Position numbers and translations under genes: made by a program. The notes beneath the pieces are model-generated. The model ran no database searches and was not told where the DNA came from. It worked only from the letters and a program-made list of their open reading frames with translations. From positions 50,008 to 114,007 of the IMG/VR virus record IMGVR_UViG_3300046522_000297: a stretch of DNA of 64,000 bases; one strand, given 5' to 3'. Numbering within the stretch: position 1 is the stretch's first letter; each line of letters begins with the position of its first letter. This DNA comes from a virus. Shown in pieces: positions 4,667 through 48,000 of the stretch.

Positions 4667-4675
4667 TGCATCAAG

Positions 4676-4753: not shown

Positions 4754-4757
4754 CAAA

Positions 4758-4833: not shown

Positions 4834-4871
4834 TTCCACCCCTCCCTCAACGTTCAATTAAGGAACATAAA

Positions 4872-5228
4872 ATGGAAGCTAAAACCTTCTCCCGTGATTC
4901 ATTCGTCTATCGTTTCCTGGCATGGCCTACCGGTAACCTGTGGTTTTCCGTGCCATACGATATCTGCCAGCTCCGCCGGGACGTTATCTTGAAGATTTTT
5001 CTGCTGCTCACCATCGTTTCGGCGACGTTCGGGTACGCTTACAGCGTCACATCTTACGTGCTGTACGAGATGAGTCAACTGTTCGGCGGCGTCTTCGGCA
5101 CCCGTGGATTAACAGAGATCGTAAAATTCGGGGGTGCCCTCACCTACATCACCTTGCTGTTTGCAGCTTTGGCAGGGATTTTCTGGGCTCTCGATAAGGC
5201 TCAGAAGTACTTCAGCCGCCGTAAATGA
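4872..5228 (+). CDS. membrane protein; reading frame stays open past the TGA to TAA at 5324
   Basis: Two TM helices; 31 further in-frame sense codons after TGA 5226-5228. Confidence 0.7.
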   Translation: MEAKTFSRDSFVYRFLAWPTGNLWFSVPYDICQLRRDVILKIFLLLTIVSATFGYAYSVTSYVLYEMSQLFGGVFGTRGLTEIVKFGGALTYITLLFAALAGIFWALDKAQKYFSRRK

Positions 5229-5411
5229 GAACGTGATGGTCTTCCCCCGAAACCCAACGGCCCGGTCAAGGAAATGTACCTGAGCTGGAAGAACAAACTC
5301 TGCTATCGAATTGACTTTCAATAATTAGCGGATCTCTGGTATAATAACAGTGTGAGGAACTTTAATGTTCCTTGCACTGTTCAAATATAAACCTCAAATT
5401 TTAGGATTAAC

Positions 5412-6074: not shown

Positions 6075-6081
6075 AGACTTC

Positions 6082-6448
6082 TGCCACACCACATTAGTTG
6101 AACCATAACCTGACGAACAGGTGATCATCCGGTTCAGGGCCGAGAACTAAAAACGGCCAACCTAAGCCCCCTAAGAAGGGCTGCCTAAAGATAATGGAGC
6201 TCTTCACTGAGCAATCGACTTCTAATCGATCCGTATATAATGCATATACTTTAAATTAAAGTCAACGTTCATTACCTCAAAGGTCAAAGGTTAAAGCTCA
6301 AACTTCAAGCTATCATAAGTTTAAAGTTAAAAGCTCAAGTATTACAACGCTCTTTCAAACCCATGGTTAACGTTTATGAGGGTTCAGGAATAGCCTCTAC
6401 TTGTACGCATGGCTGTCAGCGTTGTGGTTCAACTAATGTGGTGTGGCA
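6082..6448 (+). ncRNA. candidate structured ncRNA with heptamer-repeat tract and embedded tRNA-like arms
   Basis: 28-bp terminal stem (one G.U) plus 5 bp, internal hairpins, 13 AAAGNTY-like units, followed by an intrinsic terminator. Confidence 0.75.
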
Positions 6449-6450
6449 CA

Positions 6451-6480
6451 GATCCCTAGTTTCGACTGGGGATTTTTTTT
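6451..6480 (+). terminator. intrinsic terminator
   Basis: ATCCCTAGT-TTCG-ACTGGGGAT plus T-run. Confidence 0.85.
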
Positions 6481-6517
6481 AGCTCAATTAAGCTCATCCG
6501 TTTTGGTATAAGATTAG

Positions 6518-6590
6518 TGTCATGTAACTCAGCGGTAGAGTGCTAGAACCTTTCTAGAAGTCGCCAGTTCGATTCTGGTCACGGCCTCCC
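6518..6590 (+). pseudogene. degenerate tRNA-like element (5-nt anticodon loop, no CCA)
   Basis: Intact D-arm ACTC-AGCGGTA-GAGT and T-arm GCCAG-TTCGATT-CTGGT; anticodon arm CTAGA-ACCTT-TCTAG; mismatched acceptor. Confidence 0.65.
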
Positions 6591-6623
6591 CGAAAGGGGA
6601 GTTTATTTAGTCAAACAGGAGAT

Positions 6624-6929
6624 ATGTCAGTGCCTATTTCATTTCAAGAAATTCAAAATAACATTGATCAAAGCATCGTGTCTAGAGTGATCCGAACCAT
6701 TGACGGTAAGTTGTCGGATCCCACTTACGCAAGGGAATGGATGTGTAATTCGGATACTAACCCAACTTATCGATTTGCAATCCCCGGCTCGGTGACCGAC
6801 TACGAAAAGAAGGCTATTATTAACACGTATATGAACGTGGGATGGGGCACCGTGGAGGTTAAAAACTCCTCTGAAAACGGTGAGCGTCCCGGTATGGTCG
6901 GTGTTGTATTGAAACAGCACGCTGAATAA
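6624..6929 (+). CDS. hypothetical protein
   Basis: RBS AGGAG, followed by terminator 6936-6961. Confidence 0.75.
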   Translation: MSVPISFQEIQNNIDQSIVSRVIRTIDGKLSDPTYAREWMCNSDTNPTYRFAIPGSVTDYEKKAIINTYMNVGWGTVEVKNSSENGERPGMVGVVLKQHAE

Positions 6930-7054
6930 GTTCTTCCCGGTCTAAGGCCGGGCTTTTTTTTAGCTCAATATATTTGTGTTATTTGGTATAAGCTAAATGT
7001 AACAAAGTATCGTTACCTTTTTTTTGGCCAACCGAGCTTATATGGAGACATTAA

Positions 7055-7630
7055 ATGTCTGCAGTAACCAAACGTAATATCAGTGCATTGAAGGGCATGA
7101 AGCAGTTCGCTGTTCGTAGCCTGGAGCAACGCCAGCTCCGTCACCCCGACCACCGCTTCCTCTCGGTGGACGCCAAGCCTTTCCCCTGTCCTGTCAACGC
7201 AGTTATCAAAGCTGCTTCGGATATCGATTTCCGAGCGACCAAACCCAAGGATCTCCCCGAGGGTATGAACGCTCCTCGCAAGCGTGCAACTCCGGCAACG
7301 TACACTCCTCGTACTAACCTCGGCAAGTCCAAGTGGGATTTCCAGTATATGGAATCGGGTAACAGCATTGCCATCCCGGTCCAGGTATCGGAAAGCAATG
7401 ATTTCCAGTTCCGCCGTGAAGTGGCTCGTATCAAGGGTTGCGGTCGCGGAGTTCTCCGCTACCAAAAGAACCGTGGTTACGTCGACCCCGGTTTCCTGAT
7501 TCAGACTTCTGTCGAAGACATCGTCATCAAGACTTTACCTAACGGAGATCCAGTCACGAAACCCCATGTTGTCTTCTGGCGTATCGACGGCACTCCGATC
7601 GACCCTGCGTATCTCGCAGGTTCAATTTAA
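7055..7630 (+). CDS. hypothetical basic protein
   Basis: RBS GGAG, behind promoter motif at 6984. Confidence 0.75.
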   Translation: MSAVTKRNISALKGMKQFAVRSLEQRQLRHPDHRFLSVDAKPFPCPVNAVIKAASDIDFRATKPKDLPEGMNAPRKRATPATYTPRTNLGKSKWDFQYMESGNSIAIPVQVSESNDFQFRREVARIKGCGRGVLRYQKNRGYVDPGFLIQTSVEDIVIKTLPNGDPVTKPHVVFWRIDGTPIDPAYLAGSI

Positions 7631-7711
7631 ATAACCGCATATCTTTTTGGTATAAGGAAAGTAGAGAAGAGCATATCTTCTCTTTTTGCGCTTAACTAGC
7701 CATCTCCTTTT

Positions 7712-8062
7712 ATGGAAATCCCAACCAAGATCCTCGAAGCTTTGGGTTTCTCAAAGCCTAGAGAGGTTCTGAAGATTCACACTGATACTATCAATACTTC
7801 CCAGGTCAACATGATCGAGGAGTATTGCCCACCCGGTTGTGATCCTAAGAGAACCAAGCTGGCAATCAGCAAACGCGGTCGTAAGGACAGAGGTAACTTT
7901 GTTCAAGTCTACTACCGTGCAGGTAACAAACTCGCCCCTCAGCCAACGGCCGAGGACAAATCGAATCAATTCTGGAGAGAACTTAATGAGCTCGTCGAAC
8001 GAAACCAAAGCCGTGGTGAACGTCCACGCAGTCAAGAAAACCGAAACGGAAGCCGCCGCTGA
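7712..8062 (+). CDS. hypothetical protein
   Basis: Behind promoter motif at 7648. Confidence 0.6.
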   Translation: MEIPTKILEALGFSKPREVLKIHTDTINTSQVNMIEEYCPPGCDPKRTKLAISKRGRKDRGNFVQVYYRAGNKLAPQPTAEDKSNQFWRELNELVERNQSRGERPRSQENRNGSRR

Positions 8063-8147
8063 CAAAGCGTACTACGCTGCCAAGCGCGTCCGTAAGGGCA
8101 AAACCGCCAAGAAGCGCGCCGGCAGTGGCCGTGGTCACGCAGCATAA
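7986..8147 (+). CDS. small basic protein ending in Ala-Ala
   Basis: RBS GGAG before ATG 7986; host-like codons. Confidence 0.55.
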   Translation: MSSSNETKAVVNVHAVKKTETEAAADKAYYAAKRVRKGKTAKKRAGSGRGHAA

Positions 8148-8160
8148 CTAAGGAAATACA

Positions 8161-8352
8161 ATGGAAATCCTGCACAAGCTGTTCCCGTTCCTGGGCCAGG
8201 TCAAATCCCCGGCCGATAAAAAGGCCCCGAAGGTCTACCCGTTCTCGTCGACGCGTCAACACACCCGTGCAATCTGTCAAGGTTTGCACAACGTCCGGGT
8301 CAACGTCGCCGGCAAGCACAACACCGTGCTGCAAACGGGGGATGCCAAGTAA
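8161..8352 (+). CDS. hypothetical protein
   Basis: RBS AAGGA; host-like codons. Confidence 0.65.
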   Translation: MEILHKLFPFLGQVKSPADKKAPKVYPFSSTRQHTRAICQGLHNVRVNVAGKHNTVLQTGDAK

Positions 8353-8364
8353 GTAGCGCCGGAC

Positions 8365-8393
8365 TTGCAGTATAGTGACTACGTTGCTATAAT
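8365..8393 (+). promoter_or_regulatory. host sigma-70-type promoter
   Basis: TTGCAG-17nt-TATAAT with extended -10 TG, upstream of the tRNA pair. Confidence 0.7.
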
Positions 8394-8406
8394 GTAAGTC
8401 TTCTGT

Positions 8407-8494
8407 GCGCCGGAAGCCCTATTGGTCGGAGGCCCTCGACTCATAATCGAGCTGCGAAAGCACGTTGCGGGTTCAAAGCCCGCCCGGCGCACCA
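8407..8494 (+). tRNA. tRNA with CAU anticodon (Met/Ile2) and long variable arm
   Basis: GCGCCGG/CCGGCGC, CTCGA-CTCATAA-TCGAG, 15-nt variable region with TGC-GAAA-GCA hairpin, ACCA; A at position 8. Confidence 0.75.
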
Positions 8495-8512
8495 ATAAAT
8501 AGTTGTTAAGAT

Positions 8513-8600
8513 GGACCGGAAGCCCTACTGGTCGGAGGCCCTCGACTAATAATCGAGCTTCGAAATCACATTGCGGGTTCAAAGACCGCCCGGTCCACCA
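8513..8600 (+). tRNA. tRNA with AAU anticodon (Ile), paralog of 8407-8494
   Basis: GGACCGG/CCGGTCC, CTCGA-CTAATAA-TCGAG, 15-nt variable region, ACCA; one T-stem mismatch. Confidence 0.7.
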
Positions 8601-8619
8601 ACTCCGTAATTATAATAAG

Positions 8620-9042
8620 ATGCCTCAAGAAGCACAGTTTCCATTCGAAGGATATAGACTTTACATAGTACTTCACAAAAAAGAAGGCCGACGTATGGCT
8701 AACTTAGTGAAGAAAGACACGGGTAGTCAAGTAAGAACTACCATGTCGTACGCCCGTTATCTCATGTCAGTTCATTTAGGTAGAGTTTTGACCGAAGATG
8801 AGCATGTCGATCATAAAAATGACGATAAGTTGGATGATAGAATCGATAATTATCAGATTTTAACCCCAGCACAAAACCTTGAAAAGTATAATCGGTCACA
8901 CCCTAAAAAAGTCGTAGATGTAAGATGTTTTTGGTGTGGCACTACTTTTCAAATGGACAAAAGAAACGTCCCATTTAGGCCCAATGCTTGTTGCAGTAGA
9001 AAGTGCGCTAGAGCTAAGCAGTTTAACAGAGACAAAAGTTAG
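8620..9042 (+). CDS. HNH endonuclease with C-terminal Cys motifs
   Basis: EHVDHKNDDKLDDRIDNYQILTPAQN; CFWCG...CCSRKC; start placed at ATG after the tRNA. Confidence 0.85.
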   Translation: MPQEAQFPFEGYRLYIVLHKKEGRRMANLVKKDTGSQVRTTMSYARYLMSVHLGRVLTEDEHVDHKNDDKLDDRIDNYQILTPAQNLEKYNRSHPKKVVDVRCFWCGTTFQMDKRNVPFRPNACCSRKCARAKQFNRDKS

Positions 9043-9077
9043 TAGTCCTCTCACACAATCCGTTTTAGGAGTTTCGC

Positions 9078-9500
9078 TTGGAAACGTCCAATTCCCCAAC
9101 GGTTCTTACCGTTCCAGAGATCGAAGCAATGCTTCGTATCACCACCGCACAAGTAACAATTACGAAAGAGGTCGAAGGTGTAAACCTCGATGACCTCTGC
9201 CGTAAACTGTTGCAAATGCATGAAGAGGCGGCAAACGATCCGAACATCGCAGCTCGTTTCCCTCCCAGAACCATTGATGTCAAGGTGCAGTTCAGCAACA
9301 ACAAGATCGGCGCAATCAAAATTGTCCGTATGCTTACGGGTCAGGGTTTGAAAGAGTCGAAAGATCTCTGTGATTATGCGGCCCGTGATTTCGGAGGACG
9401 TAGCTCCGTAGTTTTACGTGGAATCCGCCCCGAGGCCTTTACGGCAGTCCAGCGAGAAACCCCTTTCATGGGTGATGTCTCGGTATCTGAACACAACTAA
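9078..9500 (+). CDS. protein with ribosomal protein bL12 (L7/L12) C-terminal-like domain
   Basis: NNKIGAIKIVRMLTGQGLKESKDLCD matches bL12 KI.VIK.VR..TGLGLKEAKDLV; RBS AGGAG before TTG. Confidence 0.8.
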   Translation: METSNSPTVLTVPEIEAMLRITTAQVTITKEVEGVNLDDLCRKLLQMHEEAANDPNIAARFPPRTIDVKVQFSNNKIGAIKIVRMLTGQGLKESKDLCDYAARDFGGRSSVVLRGIRPEAFTAVQRETPFMGDVSVSEHN

Positions 9501-9570
9501 GTTTCACCCCGCCGAGGGCTAAGAGAAATCTTGGCCCTTTCTTCTTTTCGTCCAACCAAATAGGACTCAT

Positions 9571-11685
9571 ATGAATCACTCCGTAGCAACTATCCCGCGT
9601 CGTCCGCTCGCTACCGCCGTCACTCAAGCTCTGTCGGCTCTCAAGACGGTACGTGCTGCTGCAGCTGAGGATGAGTCGAATTCGGTCAACACCGAACTCG
9701 CCATTTCCCCGGAACTCGACGCTGCAGTCGAAGACGTCATCGCCCAAGCCAAGGCCCTGGAACTCCTGGAGCCGGTCAAGGCAGAACTGCCGAAAGTCGA
9801 CCTGAGCACGGTCGTCGAATTCGTCCCGGTCAAGAACAAGATCGGCCGCTACCGCATCGTCTCGACGAAGCTGCGCCAGTTTATCCACGATTCCACCGAT
9901 ACCGGCTTCATGTCGGAAAAGATGCTGGAATCGATCCACGACAGCGAAGAGCAGAAAGCAGCCCGTCTGCGTATCTCGCTTATCGATCTGGAAGCGATGT
10001 TCCGCAGCTTCCACGACTTCGCCTCGATCGATGAAGACGACGTCAAGTCCTCGGCTTCCGGCCTGACCTGGCCCGAATACAAGACGATGTTCGACGACCT
10101 GAACCAGCGTTATAGCACCTGGCTGGAAATGCGTCGTGCTGCTGCACAAGCCAAACATGACGCACACATGGCTCAGTTCAACAGCGGCGTGGCGGACTAC
10201 GAAAGCACGCTCGTCGGCCTGAAGGGTGAATCGATCAAGCGTCTGAACGGCACGGCGATTCCGTACGTGTTCGATATGGGTGGCCAGAAGATCGTCGGCA
10301 AGATCACCAATGCCCGTGAACAAGAACACCCGATGATGGGTAAGTGGATAGAAGTCCGTTACGAAATCCACACCCACAACGGCATCGGCCTGTCGAGCAC
10401 CAACCACAAGCTGGATATCCCGATCTACGAAGGCGTAGCTTCGCTGGAATCGCTCGGCCTGACCCGCCTGGACAAGTGCTCGGAAAGCGTGAAAGCTGCC
10501 CTGATCGCCCGTGGCGAGAAGTACCTGAAGTTGCACGAGAAGCCGGCGTACGTCATGTCGACGGGCAATATCACCCGCAAGGAAGGCCGCAACACGTACC
10601 AATTCAACGCCAAGGGTCGCGCCATGGTCGATATCCTCGGCCATCGTCAGATGGATACGAACTACTACGCACACTTCCACGTGGCGGATCCGGACGGCAT
10701 GGAACCGGACGACTACATCCCGATGTCGAAGGTCGACGACTACATCAAGATGAGCTGCAGCCCGTACCTGTACGGCTTCTCGTTCAAGGCCAAACTCTGG
10801 GGCGAAATGCTCGTCGACCAAATCACGGAAATCCAGTTCCGTGACGACGTCTACGACAAGCTGGTCCTGGACGATGCCACCAAGCGCATGATCTTCGCTC
10901 AAGTCACCGATACCGGCGACGCTGACACAGATCTGATCGCTGGTAAAGGCGTCGGCTGCATCGCCCTGCTGGAAGGTCCTCCGGGTGTCGGTAAAACCCT
11001 GACGGCGGAAGCTGTCTCGGAAACCCTGAAGCGTCCGATTTACTATGTGTCGGTCGGCGAACTGGGTACCAGTGCTCGTTCGCTGGAAACCAACCTGAAG
11101 GAAATTCTGGAAATCGCAGCTTCCTGGAATGCCATTCTGCTGCTGGACGAAGGTGACGTGTTCCTGGAACGCCGTGACAGCCACGATCTGGAGCGTAACG
11201 CCATGGTTGCCGTGTTCCTGCGTCTGCTGGAGTATTTCCCGGGCATCATGTTCCTGACGACCAACCGTGCCGACAACATCGACCCGGCCTTCGAGTCCCG
11301 CATCACGCTTTGCATCCACTACAAGGATCTGGACGCAAGCAGCCGCTTCAAGATCTGGACGAACCTGCTGAATGCTGCTAAAATCAAGAGCATCAATACG
11401 GAAGCCATCGATCGTCTGTCGCACTTCAAGCTGAACGGTCGTCAGATCAAGCAGGTGATCAAGTCGGCGGGTGCACTGGCTCGTTTCGAGAAGCGCAACC
11501 TGGAATACGACGACTTCATGACCGTCATCCAGCAGAAGGAAGACTTCAAGAAGGCCACCGTCTACCAGCTCGGCAAGGGTCTGTCTGACGACAAGGCAGC
11601 AGCACCGGTGAAGGAAGTGGGCCTGGTCCGCCGTGTGTGGAACGCCCTGGTCAACAACGGCCAGAGCCTGGGTCAAGGCCAGTAA
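9571..11685 (+). CDS. AAA+ ATPase
   Basis: Walker A GPPGVGKTLTAE, Walker B ILLLDEGDVFLERR, FLTTNR...DPAFESRI, LNGRQIK. Confidence 0.92.
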   Translation: MNHSVATIPRRPLATAVTQALSALKTVRAAAAEDESNSVNTELAISPELDAAVEDVIAQAKALELLEPVKAELPKVDLSTVVEFVPVKNKIGRYRIVSTKLRQFIHDSTDTGFMSEKMLESIHDSEEQKAARLRISLIDLEAMFRSFHDFASIDEDDVKSSASGLTWPEYKTMFDDLNQRYSTWLEMRRAAAQAKHDAHMAQFNSGVADYESTLVGLKGESIKRLNGTAIPYVFDMGGQKIVGKITNAREQEHPMMGKWIEVRYEIHTHNGIGLSSTNHKLDIPIYEGVASLESLGLTRLDKCSESVKAALIARGEKYLKLHEKPAYVMSTGNITRKEGRNTYQFNAKGRAMVDILGHRQMDTNYYAHFHVADPDGMEPDDYIPMSKVDDYIKMSCSPYLYGFSFKAKLWGEMLVDQITEIQFRDDVYDKLVLDDATKRMIFAQVTDTGDADTDLIAGKGVGCIALLEGPPGVGKTLTAEAVSETLKRPIYYVSVGELGTSARSLETNLKEILEIAASWNAILLLDEGDVFLERRDSHDLERNAMVAVFLRLLEYFPGIMFLTTNRADNIDPAFESRITLCIHYKDLDASSRFKIWTNLLNAAKIKSINTEAIDRLSHFKLNGRQIKQVIKSAGALARFEKRNLEYDDFMTVIQQKEDFKKATVYQLGKGLSDDKAAAPVKEVGLVRRVWNALVNNGQSLGQGQ

Positions 11686-11695
11686 CAAGTATTAC

Positions 11696-11780
11696 GGGAG
11701 CATGGTGGAACTGGGATACACTACAGTCTTAAACACTGTCGCCTTCGGGATTGCGGGTTCGACTCCCGCTGCTCCCACCA
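11696..11780 (+). tRNA. tRNA-Leu(UAA)
   Basis: GGGAGCA/TGCTCCC, ACAGT-CTTAAAC-ACTGT, long V-arm, ACCA. Confidence 0.92.
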
Positions 11781-11841
11781 AAACAACGGCCGGCTAGGTT
11801 AACTCTTAGTCGGTCTTTTAATTTGTGAAGTTCTTTTAAGA

Positions 11842-12207
11842 ATGGATATTAGTATGTCGAAGCAAGAAAAAATCGCAGCAGCAAAAGCAACGAAGACCTC
11901 CAAGCCGACCGTGGCCCAATTCACGGGTTCGCTCGACACGACGGCGTTCGAAAAGGACTCTGTCTCCCCGGCGGATCGTTTCTGGAACATCAAGGGCACG
12001 AGCTACTATAGCCGTGACAAGGGCCTGCTGAAGGGTCTGCGTCGTGTCCTGAACCTGAAGGCAGGCGTGAACGAAGACGTGGCTGACGTCATCGAACACG
12101 ACAAGAACGACAAGGAAATCATCGTCGACAAAATCGCTGCTGTCCCGGCGAAAGACTGGCCGTTCAAGATCACCAAGGGCCCGGCTCATCCGCGCCTGAA
12201 CGGCTAA
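11842..12207 (+). CDS. hypothetical protein
   Basis: Strong host-like codon bias. Confidence 0.7.
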   Translation: MDISMSKQEKIAAAKATKTSKPTVAQFTGSLDTTAFEKDSVSPADRFWNIKGTSYYSRDKGLLKGLRRVLNLKAGVNEDVADVIEHDKNDKEIIVDKIAAVPAKDWPFKITKGPAHPRLNG

Positions 12208-12312
12208 GCTCAGCAGTTTCAATAATCACTCTAGGTATTGGTATAATATAAGTAACATAGAAATATGTATCTTTTCTTATGCTTACCTAGGGTTAAGCTG
12301 AAAGGAATTGAG

Positions 12313-12489
12313 ATGTTCAACATCCTCAACAATCTGGCGAAAGCTGCTGTCGGTATCGTGGTGGAAACTCCGCTGGCCATCGCAGCTGATGTCGTAACCC
12401 TCGGTGGCACCTTGACCGACAAGGACAAGACCTACACCGAGACCGCTGTCGAAAACGTTTACAAGAACGTCGAGAAAGCAACGAAGTAA
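12313..12489 (+). CDS. small hypothetical phage protein
   Basis: RBS AAGGA before ATG 12313; behind promoter at 12239. Confidence 0.7.
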   Translation: MFNILNNLAKAAVGIVVETPLAIAADVVTLGGTLTDKDKTYTETAVENVYKNVEKATK

Positions 12490-12519
12490 CAACCTTCCAT
12501 AACTTCAAAGGGAAATCCT

Positions 12520-12765
12520 GTGTCTGCAAAGAAAGAAGCTAAAGGCGGCAAGCCCGCACCCGTCGCACCGGCCAAGAAAGCCAAAGTCGATCCGGCAACC
12601 AAGATCAAGCGCAATGCTGACGGTACCAAGGCCATGAAAGTGGCACGTGGCACCGAGCGTCGTCGCCGTCGTGAAGGTCTGCGTCAGGACTGGAAAACCC
12701 ATCCGAACGCAAAGCAAATGCTGAAGCCGGGTCAACAGACCGTGGCAGAAGCACAAGCAGCGTAA
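12520..12765 (+). CDS. small highly basic protein ending in Ala-Ala
   Basis: K/R-rich, RRRRRE, host-like codons. Confidence 0.7.
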   Translation: MSAKKEAKGGKPAPVAPAKKAKVDPATKIKRNADGTKAMKVARGTERRRRREGLRQDWKTHPNAKQMLKPGQQTVAEAQAA

Positions 12766-12814
12766 AAGCAGTACCCACCGCTCCGGCTGAATCAGTGCGG
12801 GGCGGTGGTCCAGA

Positions 12815-12891
12815 CGGGAAGATAGCTTAGTTGGTAGAGCGCCGTATCTGAGGTACGCATGTCAGAGGTTCAAATCCTCTCTTTCCGACCA
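12815..12891 (+). tRNA. tRNA-Pro-like body with aberrant anticodon loop (possible pseudo/decoy tRNA)
   Basis: CGGGAAG/CTTTCCG + ACCA (C1-G72, A73), canonical D- and T-arms, anticodon arm CGTAT-CTGAG-GTACG. Confidence 0.6.
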
Positions 12892-12913
12892 AAATTCAAT
12901 CAACGAAATTATC

Positions 12914-13102
12914 ATGTACATTACCTGGACTCTCCTATTTATTGTATCTGCAATCCTCGGAGGGCTCTTCGGTGATTGTGGTATGACTGCAACAGCGGGT
13001 GGATTGTTTTCCATCGCTCTAGTTGCAGCAATTGCATTATTCGTAACGTGGATAGATGACGTAGAAACTAAAACCGTTGACGACTCGGTACGTAAGCGTT
13101 AA
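12914..13102 (+). CDS. small membrane protein
   Basis: Two hydrophobic helices. Confidence 0.6.
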   Translation: MYITWTLLFIVSAILGGLFGDCGMTATAGGLFSIALVAAIALFVTWIDDVETKTVDDSVRKR

Positions 13103-13117
13103 AATAGTATCTCAAAT

Positions 13118-13193
13118 GCGGGGTTAGCTCAGTTGGTAGAGCGCTTTCCTTCCAAGTAAGAGGTCGCCGATTCGAATTCGGCATCCCGCTCCA
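13118..13193 (+). tRNA. tRNA-Gly(UCC)
   Basis: GCGGGGT/ATCCCGC, loop CT-TCC-AA, TCCA end. Confidence 0.9.
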
Positions 13194-13247
13194 GGTTTCC
13201 TTCTTATCGCCGAGGTAGATCACAACGATCCCTCGGCGATTCTTTTT

Positions 13248-13356
13248 CGTACCTACACCGATTCCCCATCTTCAAAATTACTCTAAAGGCAATCTCGCCA
13301 TTATACGTTGTTGACACTGCGTAAGGGTCGAGGATGAGGAATCGGTGTGGGCACGT
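13248..13356 (+). ncRNA. candidate structured RNA / 5' leader
   Basis: ~26-bp imperfect stem CGTACCTACACCGATTCCCCATCTTC / GAGGATGAGGAATCGGTGTGGGCACG enclosing ~55 nt. Confidence 0.5.
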
Positions 13357-13403
13357 GTCCACTAGACCAATGTTGGTCATAACTCCAAATAAATAGGAAA
13401 AAC

Positions 13404-14360
13404 ATGTTCAATCTGAATACCACCGGCTTCTCCGCTAAAGTCCTGAACCGCATGTTCCGTCAGGTCGATGGCCTGAAATGGGATCTGCAAACCGGTTCGC
13501 TGGGCGTCGTCGGCAAGGATGGTTCGATTGCCACCCTGATCAAAACCGAAGTTCCGGCCGTCGCAGCCGTCGAAGCAACCGCAGTGACCCCGGCCGTCGC
13601 CGCTCAACCGGCATCGGTCGAGTACAATATCTCGGTCAACCCGTTCGACATGTTCTCGGTCGCAATCCCGGCCTTCGCTACCCAGACCCGTCTGGAAAAC
13701 GTCAAGGAAGGCGACCTGGTCGTCGGCGCCGAGAAGATCCTGGGCTTCGTCATCGGCAAGACCGCTGCTTCGCTGAAGCTGCGTGACTTCGATGGCTTCA
13801 CCAAGAACTACACCCCGCCGAAAGTCCAGATCCTGGGCAACGATGGCGTCCTGGTCGTCCAGTCGCTGGGTTCGCTGTTCGGTGGCCAGACCGGCGTCGG
13901 CGGCTTCCAATCGCTGCTGATGCCCCTGCTGCTGGCAAACGGCAACAGCACCGAAGGCCTGGACTCGATCCTGCCGCTGATCCTGTTCAGCCAACTGCAG
14001 ACCGCCAACCCGGCCGTCGCTGCTGACGCTGCAACCGCTGCTGGCAACCCGGCCCTGGCCGCAAGCCCGATCGCTTCGATGCTGCCGTTCCTGCTGCTGA
14101 AAGGCGCTGGCAAGAAAGGCTCGACCGGCGGTTCGAAAGGTGGCGCATTCGGCGACATCGACCCGATGATGCTGATGATGATGTCGGGCGGCTTCGGCGG
14201 CGGCGCACAAGCTGGCGGCATGAACCCGATGATGCTGCTGGCTCTGGCCAAAGGCGGCTTCGGCGGCGACGACGAACCGGAAGCTCCGGCTCTGGTCTCG
14301 GTACCGCGCACCTCGGCTGCTTCCGGCAACTTCGCCCCGGCCCTGACCCGTACCCGCTAA
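13404..14360 (+). CDS. Gly/Ala/Met-rich hypothetical phage protein
   Basis: RBS AGGA; repeated LLPLLL and PMMLMMM low-complexity C-terminus; extreme codon bias. Confidence 0.8.
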   Translation: MFNLNTTGFSAKVLNRMFRQVDGLKWDLQTGSLGVVGKDGSIATLIKTEVPAVAAVEATAVTPAVAAQPASVEYNISVNPFDMFSVAIPAFATQTRLENVKEGDLVVGAEKILGFVIGKTAASLKLRDFDGFTKNYTPPKVQILGNDGVLVVQSLGSLFGGQTGVGGFQSLLMPLLLANGNSTEGLDSILPLILFSQLQTANPAVAADAATAAGNPALAASPIASMLPFLLLKGAGKKGSTGGSKGGAFGDIDPMMLMMMSGGFGGGAQAGGMNPMMLLALAKGGFGGDDEPEAPALVSVPRTSAASGNFAPALTRTR

Positions 14361-14376
14361 TCCAGCGGTAACGGTC

Positions 14377-14404
14377 TTGCACACTGAGGCTGTTATGCTA
14401 TAAT
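14377..14404 (+). promoter_or_regulatory. host sigma-70-type promoter
   Basis: TTGCAC-16nt-TATAAT with extended -10 TG. Confidence 0.6.
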
Positions 14405-14415
14405 AGTCTCAATAA

Positions 14416-14490
14416 GGCAACCAAGTGGATTGGCAACCTACTGGCTTGCACCATCCGTGCACAGACGGTGGTTGCCCCAATAGCCTGTGC
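14416..14490 (+). ncRNA. candidate pseudoknotted RNA upstream of tRNA-Cys
   Basis: GGCAACCA/TGGTTGCC stem; inner CCGT-GCACAG-ACGG loop complementary to downstream CTGTGC. Confidence 0.45.
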
Positions 14491-14541
14491 AAATAGTAGA
14501 ACGGAAAAGACCTTGTTCACAAGACTGGGTCTTTTCTCCAT

Positions 14542-14621
14542 GGTAGCGTGCCTGAGTCTGGTCCAAAGGAACGGATTGCAAACCCGTAAAACCGCAGGTT
14601 CAAATCCTGCCGCTATCTCCA
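14542..14621 (+). tRNA. tRNA-Cys(GCA)
   Basis: GGTAGCG/CGCTATC, loop TT-GCA-AA, U73, CCA. Confidence 0.88.
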
Positions 14622-14638
14622 ATAAATAAAGGTGAAAT

Positions 14639-14779
14639 ATGTGGGGTAAAGAACTCGGCAATGCCCTGGAGCAAATGATCATCTTTGCTGCCATAGGCAT
14701 GATCCTATCCATGGCGTTAGGGTTAGGAGGTATCTTCTATCTTATCTGGTGGGTATTCCATCACGTACAATTCGTTTAA
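14639..14779 (+). CDS. small membrane protein (46 aa, below track cutoff)
   Basis: RBS AAGGTG; hydrophobic helix. Confidence 0.55.
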   Translation: MWGKELGNALEQMIIFAAIGMILSMALGLGGIFYLIWWVFHHVQFV

Positions 14780-14785
14780 CAATCT

Positions 14786-14862
<77 letters not shown>

Positions 14863-26123: not shown

Positions 26124-26210
26124 ATAACGAAGGCATGGTATAAGGGAATTGTAAGGGAGAGTCAATCTCTCTTACGTATGTTTAACCGTTAGTTTTAAGG
26201 AAGTTCCCAA

Positions 26211-26396
26211 ATGGCATCTACCCTCAATGTCACCGAGTATCTCGAAGAAGGCTTCGCTCTGATCGAAGATACCGAGGGCACGTATCTGGCGTCTAAACAT
26301 ACTGATGCAATCGTTGATATTCCCAAAGTAATTCCCCCAGTCATTCCTACTCGTAACTGCATCTTGGTGCAGTCTCGTGAAGCGATGCTGACCTAA
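26211..26396 (+). CDS. small hypothetical protein
   Basis: RBS AAGGAAG, promoter motif 26136. Confidence 0.6.
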   Translation: MASTLNVTEYLEEGFALIEDTEGTYLASKHTDAIVDIPKVIPPVIPTRNCILVQSREAMLT

Positions 26397-26627
26397 TCTT
26401 TAGGTCCGAGGAGCTTCGGCTCCTCTCCACGATCAAGTATAGTAGTCTAATAAGACAGGAAAGATGTAACAGCTTTCTAAATTCTTTCGGCTGCGCCGAT
26501 AGGCCTGGAGGTTCACGTCAACGACGTGACGTCCGTCGACCAGGTCCTCTGCAGCTGAAGAGCTCATCTCCTTGCAGCTCACCTCAACGAGTTGATCGTT
26601 TCACCCAGCCTGTGATATACTGCAGGC

Positions 26628-27838
26628 TTCACAACTTAATGTATGTTAGGCCTTGAGACGAAAGTCTCTTGAAGTCTAAGGTGGATGCCACATTCACTGT
26701 GTACTTCTCCTCCTACGGGGAGAAAAACCTGGCGGCCTCCGGCCACCGGTGTGATCTCGAACCCGGGTACTGCTTAGCTCCTTTAATAAAGAAGTTAAAC
26801 CAGGTACCTGGAGACCGGATGTGAGATCACAAGATTAAGTTATTTTCCGTCCTTAGTATTAAGCAAGTAACACCTTGCTACAGAAGGTAACCTTCTGGTA
26901 CTAGCTTGGGCTTTATCGCTACGCTCAAGCCCAGAGATGAATAGACTCCCTGGGATCCGCCGGCGCCGATCGCCGACGTATCTACGTCTCTTATGTGTAA
27001 GGACACTTTCGAACTTTGGTACAACAAGGGTATTACGCCTTTGTATCACGAGGCTACCTCGTGGGAGTACACTGGAATCAATGATTAATCCTGCGCTCAA
27101 GCATTGAGAAGTCAATGCCCGCTTGGATCATCGAGCAAAGTTCAATACCGGGTATGGGCACCGCCTCACTAAGAAAAGGGCCTTTCGACTTTAGTATTAA
27201 AGATAGAGAACCTATCTTCTACGATGCAACATTGTAGGTTTAGAGTTCTCATCACCTCTGGTGACCCCACCTCAGCTACATCCCTCTCTATGCTGTGGGC
27301 GCTCCGCTCAGGATGTATCAGAGGAGTGGTAACCAGAGGAGATGAGTAAGAAAAAGGACCGAGGTACTACTACTAATAAGATTTAATTAGTGGGCCCTGG
27401 GAGCACCTGGTACGTAATCGAGTAAAGTCAAAGGACGTTAGCATAAAAGTAAATGCACGGGTCGTCGGGCCCGACGTAAATCTCCCGGATCTCAATGACG
27501 AAACGTTGAGACGTCCTCCGTATATTATTATTGCCACAGCGTATGTTCCTTTGTGAATAGGCTAGCCAAGCAGAGAGAGGCGCATATATCCTCTGCAGGT
27601 GTAGACGCTGCCGTCATTTCGGTCTCCTCCCATAGATATAAAATCTGCCAATTAAAGTGAGAGTAGGTTCTCACCCAAACGACAACTGTCGGCGGTGGAT
27701 GGAAATTCTATGGAGCGTTGATACACCAGACAACTCGGAAAGACGGGTAACGTAGCTGTCACTACGCCGGTGCTCCCGATGTGGACACATCGGTTGAGCC
27801 TCTCGATCCCTACCGTAAAACGTGGGGATTTTTTTTAG
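26628..27838 (+). ncRNA. candidate very large multi-domain structured ncRNA (~1.2 kb)
   Basis: No credible ORF; TTGATC-18-TATACT promoter at 26592-26621; dense nested helices; intrinsic terminator 27805-27836. Confidence 0.65.
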
Positions 27839-27862
27839 CTTAATCAAGGTCGTCCGAGCAAC

Positions 27863-28505
27863 TGTCCAGAATTTTTGGACACTGTCCATTTTCTCAGGAC
27901 ATCTGTCCACCTCTATACTATCAACAAACAAAGCATATATAGAAATTAATGTCCAATTGTCCAAAACGTCAAAAATAAAATTGGACACTCTAAGTCTTTG
28001 ATTTTAAAAAGAAAAAGGGCAAAGTGTCCAGTTTTTTGAGATTTTCTGAAAAACATACACCAACCTTCGTGGAGAGAGTTGGGGAGAAATCAGTAGAGCC
28101 TACCCTACCCTCAACAAATCTGCTTTTATGAATTCCCCTATTCCCCCTCTATTCACTGCCTCTCTATATATATAATATATAATATATAAATAATAAATAT
28201 ATATATATATAGGTAATATGACGCAGTTTTTTGACTCGTAGAGGTTGATAGGGCTTCTCCCATTTTTCCAAAAATTCTGCGATATTTTTTATAAAGGTGG
28301 GTGTATGTTTTTCAAAAAATCGAAAAAAACTGGACACTTGGCCTATAAGGCTAGTAGACACAAGCGAAAAGGGTGTCCAGTTTTATTTTCCTATTTTTGG
28401 ACACTCTGGACACCTTCTCTAAATGTCTTTATTTTAAAAGGGTTTTAAGTGTCCAGTGCGCACAGTGAAATTGGACACCTGTCCAAAAAACTGGACACTT
28501 GTCCT
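27863..28505. repeat. putative replication origin: TGTCCA/TGGACA iterons, 46-bp inverted repeat, AT-rich core
   Basis: 16 copies of TGTCCA/TGGACA (8 on each side); IR 28022-28067 / 28294-28339 (4 mismatches); pure A/T tract 28165-28211. Confidence 0.7.
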
Positions 28506-28617
28506 GATTTAGACCCATTTGTTTCTTCTAAGTAATTAAAAACCTCCAATTTTGGTATAAGTAAGATACCTATAACTTGATTCCCCCTTTACAAACCAAA
28601 TTTAGAGGTAATTTATC

Positions 28618-28842
28618 ATGCAACGTCATTCAGAAATTCTGGTTATTGTGGGCGGCAAGCAAGTGCACGTCATTCACGATCCCGCTCATCCCCCCGCTCC
28701 GCAGTCTTTCTTGGAGATACCCGACAGAGAATCTATAACCCGCTCCACCGAGCTGTACGTAACCAAGGTCAAGAACAAGTATCCAGACTCAAACGATGCC
28801 ACCTCCCCAATGGTCATCGAATGTGAATGCATACCTGTTTAA
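28618..28842 (+). CDS. hypothetical protein
   Basis: RBS GAGGT, promoter motif 28553. Confidence 0.6.
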   Translation: MQRHSEILVIVGGKQVHVIHDPAHPPAPQSFLEIPDRESITRSTELYVTKVKNKYPDSNDATSPMVIECECIPV

Positions 28843-28932
28843 GACATGAGCCGAGGATTAACCCTCGGTTTTAGATTCAATGATATACTCTTATTTGGTA
28901 TAAGACTATGTAACTAACTACGACTAAGAACA

Positions 28933-45042: not shown

Positions 45043-48000
45043 TTAGTACGTTACTCTACTGATTTCGTACCAGGTAGAGTCTGCACTACGGAATACTAAG
45101 GTCATGGCCTGGACATACCCTGCGGTATTACCAAACTGGGCACTAGCTGCTCCGCCTGCAAAACGTACGTTAGTGTTAATCAACGTAACTGGCCAGGTAA
45201 CACCTAACAGCCTAATTTCTTCGCCATCTTGGACACCCGTAGTACCTAGGATACATCCGGTTCTAGCTGCACCAGAACCAGTGATAACCATAGTCTTTTG
45301 AGTAGGAGTCTGAGTTTGACCGTTCGCCGTAAAGCTAAGGTTATTTAAACTGGTGTACTCTCGGTTTATCTTAACAGCTTTATTAGCATCATCCAGGGTC
45401 AAGATCATAGTAGTTCCACCGCTAGGCCCGTTGAATGAACGTAGAGTGTTACTACTAAAATCGTCCTTCCAGTTCTTCGAGAAACGAGCTCCGTTAGCAG
45501 TTTCGAATACGTAGTTCGAGGTACCTAGACTGGTAAGCTCCGAAGTACAAGCATCGAAGTGGTTACCAATGACATATGCCGCTTGATACGAGTTTGACAG
45601 ACTGCGTAGTAAAACGCCGACTGCAAATCCTTCAAAATAGTTGCCGAATAGTTTCTCAGCAACAATATTCGCACCTAAGTCCACTCCATTACCTACTCCG
45701 CCGCCGGTAGATGATTGGAGAAGGTTACCCATGTAGGTATTTGCGCCGCCGGTAGTCAGCTTTATCGGTGAGTTAGATAGAATCTGATTACAGATAAACT
45801 TACATGCTTGTAATCCTAACGTCGTTCCATCTGAAATACCTATTGCAAATGCAAATCCCGCAACGCCGATAACATTATCCCTAGCAGTGTGAGTATACGC
45901 ACCTGCTACTGAAGCCGATGTATCTGGATCTACGTCAGCGTACAGAACCGCAGTCCCGACGTTGTTGGTAGCTGCCAAGAACCTATTATGCTCCCAGGTG
46001 CAGTGAGCAGCGTAGATACGCATACAGATTTGGTCACCACCCGGTCTAAACTGGATACCGATGATCCTGGTGTAAGCTGCTGCCACCTTTAGAAGATCGA
46101 AAGACCCGCTAAGGCTACGTAGATATGTCGTAGAAGAGCTCGCGCCCTCAAATACTAACCCCGCACCGGTGGAAGGTATCTTTAATGAAGATGTTATCAG
46201 GTACACCCCGGCTGGCAGAAACACCCTACGAACTGAACTTGAGCAAGCATAGTTAATAGCCGCTTGAATAGCAGCAGTATCATCCTTGACTCCATCACCG
46301 ACAGCACCAAACCACGTTACGTTAAGAGTGCCATTAAAAGCCCTCTTCCAACGTTTACCGTTGGAGGAAACGATGATGGTACCTGCATTATCTACACTAG
46401 TAGTATCGGTATCATCCCTTACGAAGTCCCCGGCCATACCGTTCAGACCTACGCAAGCAACTTTTCTAGGTCCGACATAATTTCTAAGAGCGGTATAGTC
46501 AGCTAACTGCAGGGCATTCAGAGAATCCGCAACGGTTTCTGTACCATTAGTAACTAGAGCGGCATCCGTAACTCCGATGGCAGCCGTTGATCTCGACAGC
46601 ACTTCGATAATACTTCCAGCAGGAGGAGCTTCACTGAACGTCAGAGTTTTACCAACGATACTATAAGTGGCCTTCTGCTGGTAAGATGCATTGATAAACA
46701 CATCTGAAACCATAACACCTACCGGGGTCTTGGCCAATGTGAAGGCAACCTTAGTGCCGTCGCCTACGAAATTATCAAGGTTTACGGTATTTCTATCTGC
46801 ACGGATCTGGTCCAGGATAGTTTTTACGTTGGTCGGAGCAGTGCCGTCGTTAGGGTTATAAACCGTTGTAGCTGCATCTGCTGCACTGAACGGGATTTCG
46901 TACTTGATAACTACTTCAATAGTGATACCGCTCAGAGGGGCTTCACTGAATGTCAGAGTAGTACCTAGCGCAGTGTACGAATCTTTTCTCTGATACACCC
47001 CATCGAAGTGAATATCTACTACGGAAGTGCCGCTCACTGAAACCGGCAAAGTGTAAACCGTAGTCGTACCATCCCCGATAAACATCGCAACGTACTGACT
47101 TGCACGTTTATCTAGCTCTGCCTTAACAGTTGTCTGAGTAACATTACCCGCAGGGGTATAGTTAACTCCTGTAGCATCAACCGTAGTCAGAGGAAGTTCT
47201 TTCCGAATAACTACTTCAATGTTATTAGTACCCGCTACCGGTGCCGACAGGAACGTTAAAGTAGTTCCATAGGCGGTATAAGTAGTTTTCTGCTGATATG
47301 CACCACTGATGTACACATCCAGGCTGGTTGGATTAGCAACGGCAACCGGTAGGTTGAAAGTAGTCGCTGAGCCAGTCCCCGAGTATCTAGCAACAGTAGC
47401 CGTACCACGTTCTTTCTTAAACGTGTCTAGGGCGTCCTTAACGTTAGAAACAATAAGGCCATCATCTGATAGGTACCTAGTTGTGGCAGCGTCAGACACA
47501 CCGATAGGCAGAGCATAAGTCACCGTAACTTCAATGCTTGCACCATTGTCTGGGGCAGAGCTGAAAGTCAAGTTAGTGCCACTCAGAGTATATCCAGATT
47601 TCTCCTGATAAACGGAGTTGATATGGACATGCATCATGTTGGCGTTAGGTATGGCAAACGGAAGCACAAAAGTCGTGTTTGAGCCGTTACCAGTATATCT
47701 GTACACGCCTACGGTATTACGCTGGTCCAGTGCGTCTTTGACGCTAGCTACGTTAGATCCATCGACTGCAGTATAGCTGATAAGAGATGCGTCGGTGCTT
47801 CCTAGCGGAGCGATGGCATCAAGGACGACTTCAACGTTATCCGTACCTGCTGGAGGAGCCTCGGTGAAAGTTAACAGGTTATTGGTAACGGTATACGAGC
47901 TCTTAAGCTGGTACAGGGAATCAATGTGGACATCAACCGCATTACCGAAAGCTGGCACTGGCAGGCTGAAAGTCGTTGTACTTCCATCACCTGAGAACTT

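What the first reader, a model, noticed from the sequence alone, without database searches (positions are those of the whole stretch)
26400..27838. ~1.2-1.4-kb ORF-free region folding into consecutive multi-hairpin domains: candidate giant ncRNA
Seen: no credible ORF for 1.4 kb in an otherwise gene-dense genome; a sigma-70-like promoter (TTGATC 26592, TG-TATACT 26616) and a terminator at 27805-27836. Long-range helices close adjacent domains: AACTTAAT 26633/ATTAAGTT 26834; GTCCTTA 26849/TAAGGAC 26998; GAACTTTG 27011/CAAAGTTC 27136; GACTTTA 27187/TAAAGTC 27423; AGGACGT 27432/ACGTCCT 27511. Each contains local hairpins (GAGAC-GAAA-GTCTC 26655; TGTGATCTC/GAGATCACA; CAGAAGG-TAA-CCTTCTG; CACGAGG-CTA-CCTCGTG; CTCATC-A-CCTCTGGT/ACCAGAGG-A-GATGAG; CCGATGT-GGAC-ACATCGG). 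More hairpins lie at 26400-26590. Established: large ornate phage RNAs (GOLLD, ROOL) exist, often near tRNA clusters. I see no group I/II intron, tmRNA or RNase P hallmarks. Inference: a new large structured RNA class, or a replication-linked RNA given the adjacent origin-like element.
Basis: partly seen in the sequence, partly recalled or inferred. Interest (0 to 1): 0.88.

Follow-up and report, generated by a model that had tools for sequence, protein, structure and literature searches.

The report
Tandem array of new phage RNAs
The 1.4-kb gene-free stretch is a real, conserved, strongly folded non-coding RNA locus of an uncultured soil phage. It is best read as a row of five or more separately folding RNAs of an undescribed family, which in related phages sits beside Y-RNA genes and a Ro60 gene, rather than as one giant RNA.

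Summary
Window 26400-27838 has no conserved ORF under the standard code or with TAG or TGA reassigned. It folds far better than shuffled sequence (z -3 to -6), and it is better conserved in the one close relative (~90%) than the flanking genes (76-84%).

The "giant RNA" reading is only partly supported. The region consists of units, each closed by its own 7-8 bp helix. Units D2, D3 and D4 share a 5' module: closing helix, GUAU linker, hairpin 1, then hairpin 2 with a G[NWA]C triloop. D0 and D1 share that layout by eye only.

A covariance model of this module finds 17 units in five phage lineages, always downstream of the same gene series (NT5C, HAD_SAK_2, HTH, small ORF). In these, 95% of cells pair and 14 of 15 pairs covary. 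The model finds nothing in 1.7 Mb of unrelated phage loci.

Unit number varies between lineages (2 to 5). The units are interleaved with tRNA-Met, Y-RNA-like genes and, in three lineages, a Ro60 gene. The window's phage has no Ro60 gene and no Y handles.

No Rfam family matches. Function is unknown; my best guess is processed, stable adaptor or decoy RNAs in RNA surveillance. The scan noted the same units before on two other genomes.

The parts
26211..26396 (+). Small ORF (61 aa) that immediately precedes the array. It is conserved in all five lineages, with the motif V-x-E-[YF]-x-[ED]-E-G-F-A-[LI]-I-x-D-T-x-G-x-Y.
   Evidence: homologous ORFs in L002, L020, L193, L195 and L196; no Pfam or PHROG family; AF2 pLDDT 69 and no fold match
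26407..26425 (+). Hairpin after the small ORF's stop codon. In L002 its stem is replaced by a different sequence that also reads as a hairpin.
   Evidence: alignment, read by eye (GAGGAGC-TTCG-GCTCCTC against GGAAGC-TGAAAG-GCTTCC); the consensus fold pairs only four invariant flanking pairs here and reports no both-sides change
26430..26598 (+). Unit D0. Closing helix CGATCAA/TTGATCG, GUAUAG linker, short hairpin, then a UAA-triloop hairpin with one mismatch, and 'ACGAG' before the 3' strand. Same layout as the family, but assigned by inspection only.
   Evidence: L193 unit a has the same closing helix and junctions; sequence homology of the small ORF plus D0 to L193, L195 and L196; not detected by models R2/R3
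26592..26621 (+). Sigma-70-like site (TTGATC-18-TATACT, TG-extended). It overlaps the 3' strand of D0's closing helix. Its function is doubtful.
   Evidence: conserved in L002; no such site after the first unit in L193 or L196
26633..26841 (+). Unit D1. Closing helix AACTTAAT/ATTAAGTT, GUAUGU linker, extended hairpin 1 with a GAAA loop, hairpin 2 with a CCA triloop, then three more hairpins.
   Evidence: layout assigned by inspection, not detected by R2/R3
26849..27004 (+). Unit D2 (family member by covariance model). GTCCTTA/TAAGGAC, GUAUUA linker, hairpin 1, hairpin 2 CAGAAGG-UAA-CCUUCUG, and a CGCUAC-bearing hairpin 3.
   Evidence: (65.6 bits, E 5e-11)
27011..27143 (+). Unit D3 (family member by covariance model). 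GAACTTTG/CAAAGTTC, GGUACA linker, hairpin 1, hairpin 2 with a CUA triloop.
   Evidence: 62.3 bits; C-G to U-A compensatory change in hairpin 2 against L002
27144..27186 (+). Variable spacer. In L002 it is replaced by about 140 nt that include a (YTTCTAG)5 repeat.
27187..27429 (+). Unit D4 (family member by covariance model). GACTTTA/TAAAGTC, GUAUUA linker, hairpin 1, hairpin 2 with a CAA triloop, and a hairpin 3 of about 100 nt.
   Evidence: 70.7 bits; L020 units share GACUUUA...GAGUAAAGU
27432..27517 (+). Domain D5. A self-closed 86-nt element (AGGACGT/ACGTCCT). It is absent from L002/L003 and does not have the family layout.
27518..27800 (+). Domain D6. A multibranch domain whose core helix pairs about 27598-27609 with about 27716-27729. 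It does not have the family layout.
   Evidence: 6 base pairs changed on both sides between the window and L002, with pairing kept
27805..27838 (+). Intrinsic terminator: 9-bp stem followed by T8.
   Evidence: a different hairpin plus T-run stands at the same place in L002; a hairpin followed by a T-run, read by eye, ends the L196 array (not flagged by the scan)
27840..28930 (.). Context: an AT-rich, ORF-poor region with TGTCCA/TGGACA palindromes. It is homologous to the region that follows the Ro60 gene in L195 and L196.

Best explanation
Window 26430-27838 (+ strand) is a polycistronic array of autonomously folding, stable non-coding RNAs, not one RNA machine.

Three units (D2, D3, D4) belong to a previously undescribed RNA family. 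Two more (D0, D1) share its layout by inspection. The family layout is:
- a 7-11 bp terminal helix P1;
- a 5' junction beginning GUAU;
- hairpin 1;
- hairpin 2, 7-9 bp, closed by G-C around an N-W-A triloop;
- one to three variable hairpins;
- a 3' junction ending in GAG (GUG in two units, AAG in one), directly followed by the 3' strand of P1.

Two further structured domains (D5, D6) and an intrinsic terminator complete the locus.

Shown here:
- The structure is conserved and covaries.
- The family recurs in five phage lineages at the same genomic position.
- Unit number varies, and in relatives the units are interleaved with tRNA-Met, YrlA-type Y-RNA genes and a Ro60 gene.

Inferred:
- The array is transcribed with, or just after, the conserved small ORF.
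- It is cut at the short spacers (TTTC or TTCC stands before the 5' G of D2-D4, and an A after the 3' strand of D1-D4), as tRNA/Y-RNA precursors are.
- The units act as protein-binding adaptor or decoy RNAs in the phage's RNA-surveillance/repair island. Their action cannot depend on a phage-encoded Ro60, because this phage has no Ro60 gene and no Y handles.
For: Structure:
- z-scores of -3 to -6 in nearly every 300-nt window across the region.
- The + strand folds better than the - strand (-437.5 against -413.3 kcal/mol).
- 31 G-U pairs occur among 382 predicted pairs.

Conservation:
- The non-coding stretch is 90-91% identical to L002/L003, while flanking genes are 76-84%.
- Six both-sides changes keep pairing in D6.

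Paralogy:
- A model built from D4 alone finds D2 (30.4 bits, E 3e-4) and D3 (18.3 bits). These are the top two non-self hits in the 64-kb window.

Family:
- Models R2/R3 hit 17 units, all on the array strand, in the window, L002, L020, L193, L195 and L196.
- 95% of cells pair, and 14 of 15 pairs change on both sides.
- 89 cells change on both sides against 27 +/- 4 in shuffles. Slid controls pair at only 32-48%.
- Five units never used in training pair at 63 of 69 cells.
- There is no hit in 1.73 Mb of unrelated HAD_SAK_2 loci except L011, which is the same contig as L196.
- P1 closure and the junction before its 3' strand (GAG in most units, GUG in D2 and L196 unit c, AAG in D1) are not part of the model, yet are present for nearly all units.

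Autonomy of units:
- tRNA-Met plus a T-arm minihelix is inserted exactly between D1 and D2 in L002/L003.
- D5 is present or absent between close relatives.
- There are 2 to 5 units per lineage, interleaved with 5-8 Y-handle RNAs and a 64-aa ORF.

Context:
- The synteny NT5C, HAD_SAK_2, HTH, small ORF, array is shared.
- YrlA-like hits (E 5e-7, 1e-6, 2e-4) and Ro60 genes lie in L195, L196 and L020.
- Polycistronic tRNA/Y-RNA precursors are established in D. radiodurans and M. smegmatis (PMC4201824).
Against: - No transcript data.
- D0 and D1 are not detected by the covariance models. Their membership rests on inspection.
- Against the only close relative, paired and unpaired positions change at the same rate (13.0% against 13.9%), and 44 predicted pairs are broken, mostly in replaced apical segments.
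- The covariation alignment was fitted to the model, which favours pairing.
- The functional link to RNA surveillance rests on gene neighbourhood only, and all five lineages share overall genome order.
- No protein partner was identified. The small ORF's fold is uninformative.
Confidence: 0.62

Rival explanations
1. One giant ornate RNA of about 1.2-1.4 kb (GOLLD/ROOL-like), in which the units are domains of a single functional molecule. They might pack against each other as an intramolecular equivalent of a homo-oligomeric RNA cage.
For: - A single terminator ends the array, and the units stand back to back with 6-7 nt spacers.
- GOLLD and ROOL are phage RNAs near tRNA islands, and GOLLD can carry tRNAs in its linker (10.1101/2024.12.08.627333). 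An embedded tRNA-Met is therefore no disproof.
- Repeated paralogous units could give quasi-symmetry.
Against: - No Rfam match to GOLLD or ROOL, even at E up to 10.
- Every long-range helix closes only its own unit. No inter-unit pairing with covariation was seen.
- Unit number and order differ between lineages.
- Units are separated by up to 1.2 kb of Y-RNA genes in L196 and by an ORF in L020.
- D5 is dispensable between close relatives.
Confidence: 0.15
2. A structured 3' untranslated region, or a set of processing and stability elements, of the small-ORF mRNA, with no trans-acting role.
For: - The small ORF always sits directly upstream.
- Terminator-like hairpins bracket the small ORF plus array at 26150-26176 and 27805-27836.
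- No conserved internal promoter was found.
Against: - 1.4 kb of elaborately junctioned units with conserved junction nucleotides is far more than a 186-nt ORF needs for stabilisation.
- In relatives the same stretch carries bona fide RNA genes: tRNA-Met and YrlA-like RNAs.
Confidence: 0.08
3. A DNA-level element, in which the hairpins serve replication, packaging or recombination next to the TGTCCA-repeat region.
For: - It lies next to an AT-rich repeat region.
- The minus strand also folds better than shuffles in most windows.
Against: - G-U pairs are frequent and tolerated in covarying helices. On the other strand they would be A-C mismatches.
- In the multi-lineage searches every full-length model hit lies on the gene strand.
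- The array is separated from the repeat region by Ro60 in L195 and L196.
- It carries a strand-specific terminator.
Confidence: 0.05
4. A decaying remnant of a Ro60/Y-RNA island that lost Ro60 and is no longer functional.
For: - Neither this phage nor its complete relative has TROVE or Y handles.
- L002 keeps only a degenerate T-arm minihelix.
Against: - The units are better conserved than neighbouring protein genes.
- Pairing is kept through compensatory changes.
- L193, another locus with no Ro60 gene in the stretch examined, keeps five units.
Confidence: 0.05

Closest known systems
Bacterial and phage Y RNAs (YrlA/YrlB, Yrn1/2, phiLo Yrl1/2) with Ro60/Rsr
   Same: - Small modular RNAs closed by pairing of their 5' and 3' ends.
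- Several copies per locus, co-transcribed with tRNAs, in phage RNA-repair neighbourhoods.
- Homologous units lie within 2 kb upstream of Ro60, on the same strand, in L020, L195 and L196. They sit beside YrlA-like RNAs.
- Literature: PMC4201824, PMC12135203.
   Different: - No GNCGAA/CGAA handle, and no RRCCG...RGNUUAYC motif (0 copies in the window against 5-8 in the Ro60 loci).
- No RF02553 hit in the window.
- No T or D arm.
- The closing helix is only 7-11 bp, with different conserved junctions (GUAU and a GAG-type 3' junction).
- The units are present in phages without a Ro60 gene.
GOLLD (RF01998) and ROOL (RF03087) large ornate phage RNAs
   Same: - Phage-encoded, elaborate multi-hairpin structure, next to tRNA genes, function unknown.
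- A tRNA can be embedded: the GOLLD linker, and tRNA-Met in L002/L020.
   Different: - No covariance-model match.
- Built of repeated, self-closed paralogous units whose number varies.
- No conserved long-range architecture spans the units.
Stable RNAs of unknown function in the tRNA gene clusters of phages T4 (species 1 and 2) and T5. This is my own recollection, not checked here.
   Same: Small stable structured RNAs co-transcribed and processed with phage tRNAs.
   Different: No sequence or structure comparison could be made here. Those RNAs are single copies, not arrays of paralogues.

Membership tests
GOLLD / ROOL (Rfam RF01998, RF03087) | Match to the family covariance model | tested here: not met
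   No hit at gathering score in the window. No hit at E up to 10 with permissive filters in 26200-28600.
GOLLD / ROOL (Rfam RF01998, RF03087) | Phage-encoded and next to tRNA genes | tested here: met
   Ten or eleven tRNAs lie at 800-14862 of the window. tRNA-Met lies inside the array in L002/L003 and L020.
GOLLD / ROOL (Rfam RF01998, RF03087) | Homo-oligomeric RNA-only cage | not testable with these tools
   Needs in vitro transcription and cryo-EM or mass photometry.
Y RNA / YrlA (Rfam RF02553) | Match to the YrlA covariance model (tRNA-like T and D arms) | tested here: not met
   None in the window or in L002's array. Other elements of the relatives' arrays do match: L195 44.9 bits, L196 43.6 bits, L020 34.4 bits, all below the gathering score of 69.
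Y RNA / YrlA (Rfam RF02553) | Ro60-binding handle (GNCGAA(N)G / CGAA motif; here RRCCG-N5-10-RGNTTAYC) | tested here: not met
   0 copies in the window, G000, L002 and L193. 5, 8 and 8 copies on the + strand of L020, L195 and L196. 19 copies in 4.1 Mb of background.
Y RNA / YrlA (Rfam RF02553) | Encoded within about 4 kb of a Ro60/TROVE gene on the same strand | tested here: not met
   No TROVE match in G000 (71% complete) or in G001, the 100% complete relative. The criterion is met for homologous units in L020, L195 and L196.
Y RNA / YrlA (Rfam RF02553) | Binds Ro60 | not testable with these tools
   Needs EMSA or co-immunoprecipitation.
tRNA, tmRNA, RNase P, group I/II introns | Rfam or ARAGORN match | tested here: not met
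New 'GUAU-triloop' unit family (defined here) | 5' module: GUAU linker, hairpin 1, hairpin 2 with a G[NWA]C triloop (models R2/R3) | tested here: met
   D2, D3 and D4 score 62-71 bits. D0 and D1 are not detected and were assigned by inspection only.
New 'GUAU-triloop' unit family (defined here) | Terminal helix P1 of 6 bp or more formed by the bases just 5' of GUAU and a distal strand preceded by a GAG-type junction (GAG, GUG or AAG) | tested here: met
   D0-D4 and 12 units in relatives. In the automatic test of 13 model hits, 7 have a P1 that at most 1% of 200 shuffled 5' strands equal. D2, D4 and L193 unit e reach 10-20%. For three hits the script picked the wrong GUAU.
New 'GUAU-triloop' unit family (defined here) | Position downstream of NT5C, HAD_SAK_2, HTH and the small ORF | tested here: met

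The most novel reading that the evidence does not exclude
The GUAU-triloop units are a second, Ro60-independent class of phage adaptor RNAs. Each would bind a host RNA-processing enzyme (for example PNPase or another exoribonuclease, or a repair or defence nuclease) through its constant junction, and display a variable hairpin set. Alternatively, the tandem paralogues pack into one quasi-symmetric RNA-only particle, an intramolecular counterpart of the ROOL/GOLLD cages.
Probability: 0.12. Interest if true: 0.85.

Novelty: new variant of a known kind. Interest (0 to 1): 0.64.

Why it matters
Phage 'RNA islands' (tRNAs, Y RNAs, GOLLD/ROOL) are among the least understood parts of phage genomes.

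This work defines a covariation-supported RNA family with no Rfam model. In three lineages the family travels with Y RNAs and Ro60. It persists, better conserved than its neighbouring protein genes, in phages that have neither.

That gives a clean handle on two questions: which RNAs of such islands depend on Ro60 and which do not, and what the non-Y RNAs seen near rsr loci do. The units are short (130-240 nt), self-closed and numerous, which makes them well suited to structure probing, pull-downs and cryo-EM.

Tried and rejected
Searches that found nothing:
- blastn of the region against 50,697 GenBank phages: no match.
- tblastn of the small ORF against the same collection: no match.
- No cultured relative: the HAD_SAK_2 protein reaches at most 37% identity and the tail fibre only partial matches.
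- The IMG/VR scan for TTYCGWCYTTAGTATTAA gave 21 stretches, about what chance would give (my estimate). Only the known relative aligned further.
- Scans with the window's 208-aa neighbour protein, with P0008, and with a back-translated FM[DE]GLTC pattern gave no new relatives.
Only L020 and L011 among them carried the RNA.

The ~50%-identity relatives P0003-P0020 could therefore not be fetched.

Readings rejected:
- Recoded gene: no long frame under TAG=Q or table 4.
- Conserved minus-strand ORFs: not kept in L002.
- GGTCCGA at 26406-26412 equals the metazoan Ro60 contact motif, but it is not conserved in L002, so I treat it as chance.

Uninformative results:
- Small-ORF structure: AF2 pLDDT 69. 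Foldseek against the PDB gave nothing at E <= 0.001.
- My strict structural descriptor gives about 1.2 chance hits per 100 kb. Its hit at window 45734-45842, inside a large ORF, is taken as chance.

Full report
**Source and setting**

The window is bases 50008-114007 of a 114-kb IMG/VR virus record that is 71% complete. Its nearest relative, G001 (loci L002/L003), is a complete 184,920-b phage. An earlier scan note on this genome calls it a soil phage; the IMG/VR record as shown here names no environment. There is no cultured relative.

Genes on both sides of the finding lie on the + strand.
- Upstream: YqeY-like, NT5C nucleotidase, HAD_SAK_2, an 86-aa HTH protein and a 61-aa ORF.
- Downstream: a 1.1-kb AT-rich TGTCCA-repeat region, a 208-aa protein and a DHH phosphoesterase.

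**Checking the observation**

The stretch 26397-27838 has no + strand ORF of 60 aa or more. Its two minus-strand ORFs are not kept in L002. Reassigning TAG or TGA opens nothing long.

In 300-nt sliding windows the + strand folds 3 to 6 standard deviations better than dinucleotide shuffles in nearly every window. Most coding flanks sit near zero.

The terminator at 27805-27836 is found by the scan.

The sigma-70-like site at 26592 is also found, but three things weaken it:
- Such sites are not enriched in the region.
- Its -35 hexamer is the 3' strand of the helix that closes a further unit, D0.
- No such site follows the first unit in L193 or L196.

The transcription start is therefore open.

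Rfam 15 gives only tRNAs elsewhere in the window. In the region itself it gives nothing, even at E up to 10.

**The close relative**

L002/L003 carry the same locus. The non-coding part is 90-91% identical, while the flanking genes are 76-84%.

Differences are concentrated in hairpin tips and in whole-module insertions and deletions:
- A tRNA-Met(CAT) plus a T-arm minihelix sits exactly between D1 and D2.
- A (YTTCTAG)5-bearing insert sits between D3 and D4.
- D5 is missing.

Domain D6 shows six base pairs changed on both sides with pairing kept.

Measured globally against this one relative, however, paired and unpaired positions change equally often, and many predicted pairs in the replaced tips are broken. 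Two sequences alone would not have proved structure.

**Paralogous units**

D2, D3 and D4 share the following order of elements:
- a 7-8 bp closing helix;
- a six-base linker (GUAUUA or GGUACA);
- hairpin 1;
- 0-1 nt;
- hairpin 2, with a 7-8 bp stem and a three-base loop.

D0 and D1 show the same layout by eye.

A covariance model built from D4 alone recovers D2 and D3 as the best non-self hits in the 64-kb window. Among the six paralogue copies, all cells pair and 10 of 15 pairs change on both sides.

**Distant relatives**

The second model (R2) gave one marginal hit among 100 HAD_SAK_2-bearing loci, in L020. That locus proved syntenic: NT5C, HAD_SAK_2, an 86-aa HTH protein (38% identical), a small ORF (37% identical), then an ORF-free array.

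The L020 array holds the following:
- tRNA-Met;
- two units with the same layout, one sharing D4's GACUUUA...GAGUAAAGU ends;
- a YrlA-like RNA;
- a Ro60 gene with TROVE and vWA_Ro60 domains.

An alignment of the small ORFs then pulled in three more lineages: L193, L195, and L196 with L197 and L198.

The third model (R3) finds 17 units across five lineages, all on the array strand. Five of them were never used in training. The results were:
- Covariation on that alignment: 95% of cells paired, 14 of 15 pairs changed on both sides.
- 89 cells changed on both sides, against 27 +/- 4 in shuffles. Slid controls paired at 32-48%.
- The held-out units pair at 63 of 69 cells.
- The alignment was fitted to the model, which favours pairing. 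The closing helix and the junction before its 3' strand are not in the model, yet they are present for nearly all units. That junction is GAG in most units, GUG in two and AAG in one.
- The model is specific. In 1.73 Mb of unrelated loci the only hits are on the L196 contig.

**Relation to Ro60 and Y RNAs**

L020, L195 and L196 each carry a Ro60 gene just after the array. They carry YrlA-like hits. They also carry 5, 8 and 8 copies of a Y-type handle motif on the array strand.

The window, its whole genome, L002 and L193 carry no copy of that motif. Neither G000 nor the complete G001 has a TROVE protein.

The window's TGTCCA-repeat region is homologous to the region that follows Ro60 in L195 and L196. 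In those phages, Ro60 therefore lies between the array terminator and this repeat region, with the Y genes inside the array; the window's lineage lacks both.

The units are thus not Y RNAs by any defining feature. They are a companion RNA class of the same island, and they persist without a phage Ro60.

The literature checked describes the following, but nothing like these units:
- YrlA/YrlB and polycistronic tRNA/Y-RNA precursors (PMC4201824);
- phage Ro60 with Yrl1/2 and host PNPase (PMC12135203);
- GOLLD/ROOL cages, with tRNAs in the GOLLD linker (10.1101/2024.12.08.627333).

Two earlier first-reader notes of this scan had seen the same RNAs on the L002-type and L196-type genomes, without follow-up.

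**One RNA or many**

The evidence favours many:
- Each long-range helix closes only its own unit.
- Unit number runs from 2 to 5.
- Units are separated by independent RNA genes or an ORF in relatives.
- D5 comes and goes between close relatives.

A GOLLD-like single molecule is not excluded, since tRNAs occur in GOLLD linkers. I put it at about 15%.

**Function**

Nothing was tested. My best guess is that the array is transcribed with or after the conserved small ORF and processed at the short spacers. The units would then serve as stable protein-binding adaptors or decoys in RNA surveillance or repair.

This guess rests on neighbourhood only. The small-ORF protein is the most consistent neighbour, but its predicted fold is uninformative.

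**Limits**

- The ~50%-identity relatives seen in the protein search could not be fetched.

Noticed in passing
window 27840-28930: An AT-rich, ORF-poor region of 1.1 kb with many TGTCCA/TGGACA palindromes (for example TGTCCAGAATTTTTGGACA). It is homologous, on both strands, to the region downstream of Ro60 in L196 (9816-10392) and L195. It looks like operator sites for an HTH regulator, or an origin.
   Followed up: partly
window 26211-26396; L020 3418-3684; L193 6001-6204; L195 5998-6162; L196 5986-6156: A small protein (54-88 aa) with an invariant EGFA-I-DT-G-Y core always directly precedes the RNA array. It has no Pfam or PHROG family. AF2 predicts a four-strand beta N-terminus at low confidence. 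It is a candidate RNA partner.
   Followed up: partly
L196 6726-7660; L195 6695-7770; L020 4299-5820: Five to eight tandem RNAs share a Y-type handle (RRCCG-N5-10-RGNUUAYC). Some carry T and D arms (YrlA-like). They lie upstream of a phage Ro60 gene, forming many-member Y-RNA arrays.
   Followed up: partly
L002/L003 7983-8255 and 8565-8700: Two insertions relative to the window. One holds tRNA-Met(CAT) plus an acceptor/T-arm minihelix that resembles a degenerate Y/tRNA-like piece. The other holds a (YTTCTAG)5 tandem repeat.
   Followed up: partly
window 26150-26176: A terminator-like hairpin lies between the HTH gene and the small ORF. L196 has one at the equivalent place (5921-5944). This suggests the small ORF plus array form a separate transcription unit.
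   Followed up: no
units D2 (window about 26910-26925), L193 b and c, L020 U2, L195 a, L196 b: A subset of units carries a CGCUAC / CUACGCUAC motif, often followed by (A)CUCC, at the apex of hairpin 3. It may be a conserved single-stranded recognition element.
   Followed up: no
window 26406-26412: GGTCCGA is identical to the metazoan Y-RNA Ro60 contact motif. It is not conserved in L002, so it is probably chance.
   Followed up: yes
window 45734-45842 (+): The only other hit of my strict unit descriptor in the genome. It lies antisense inside the 1158-aa ORF and is not hit by R2/R3. Taken as chance.
   Followed up: partly
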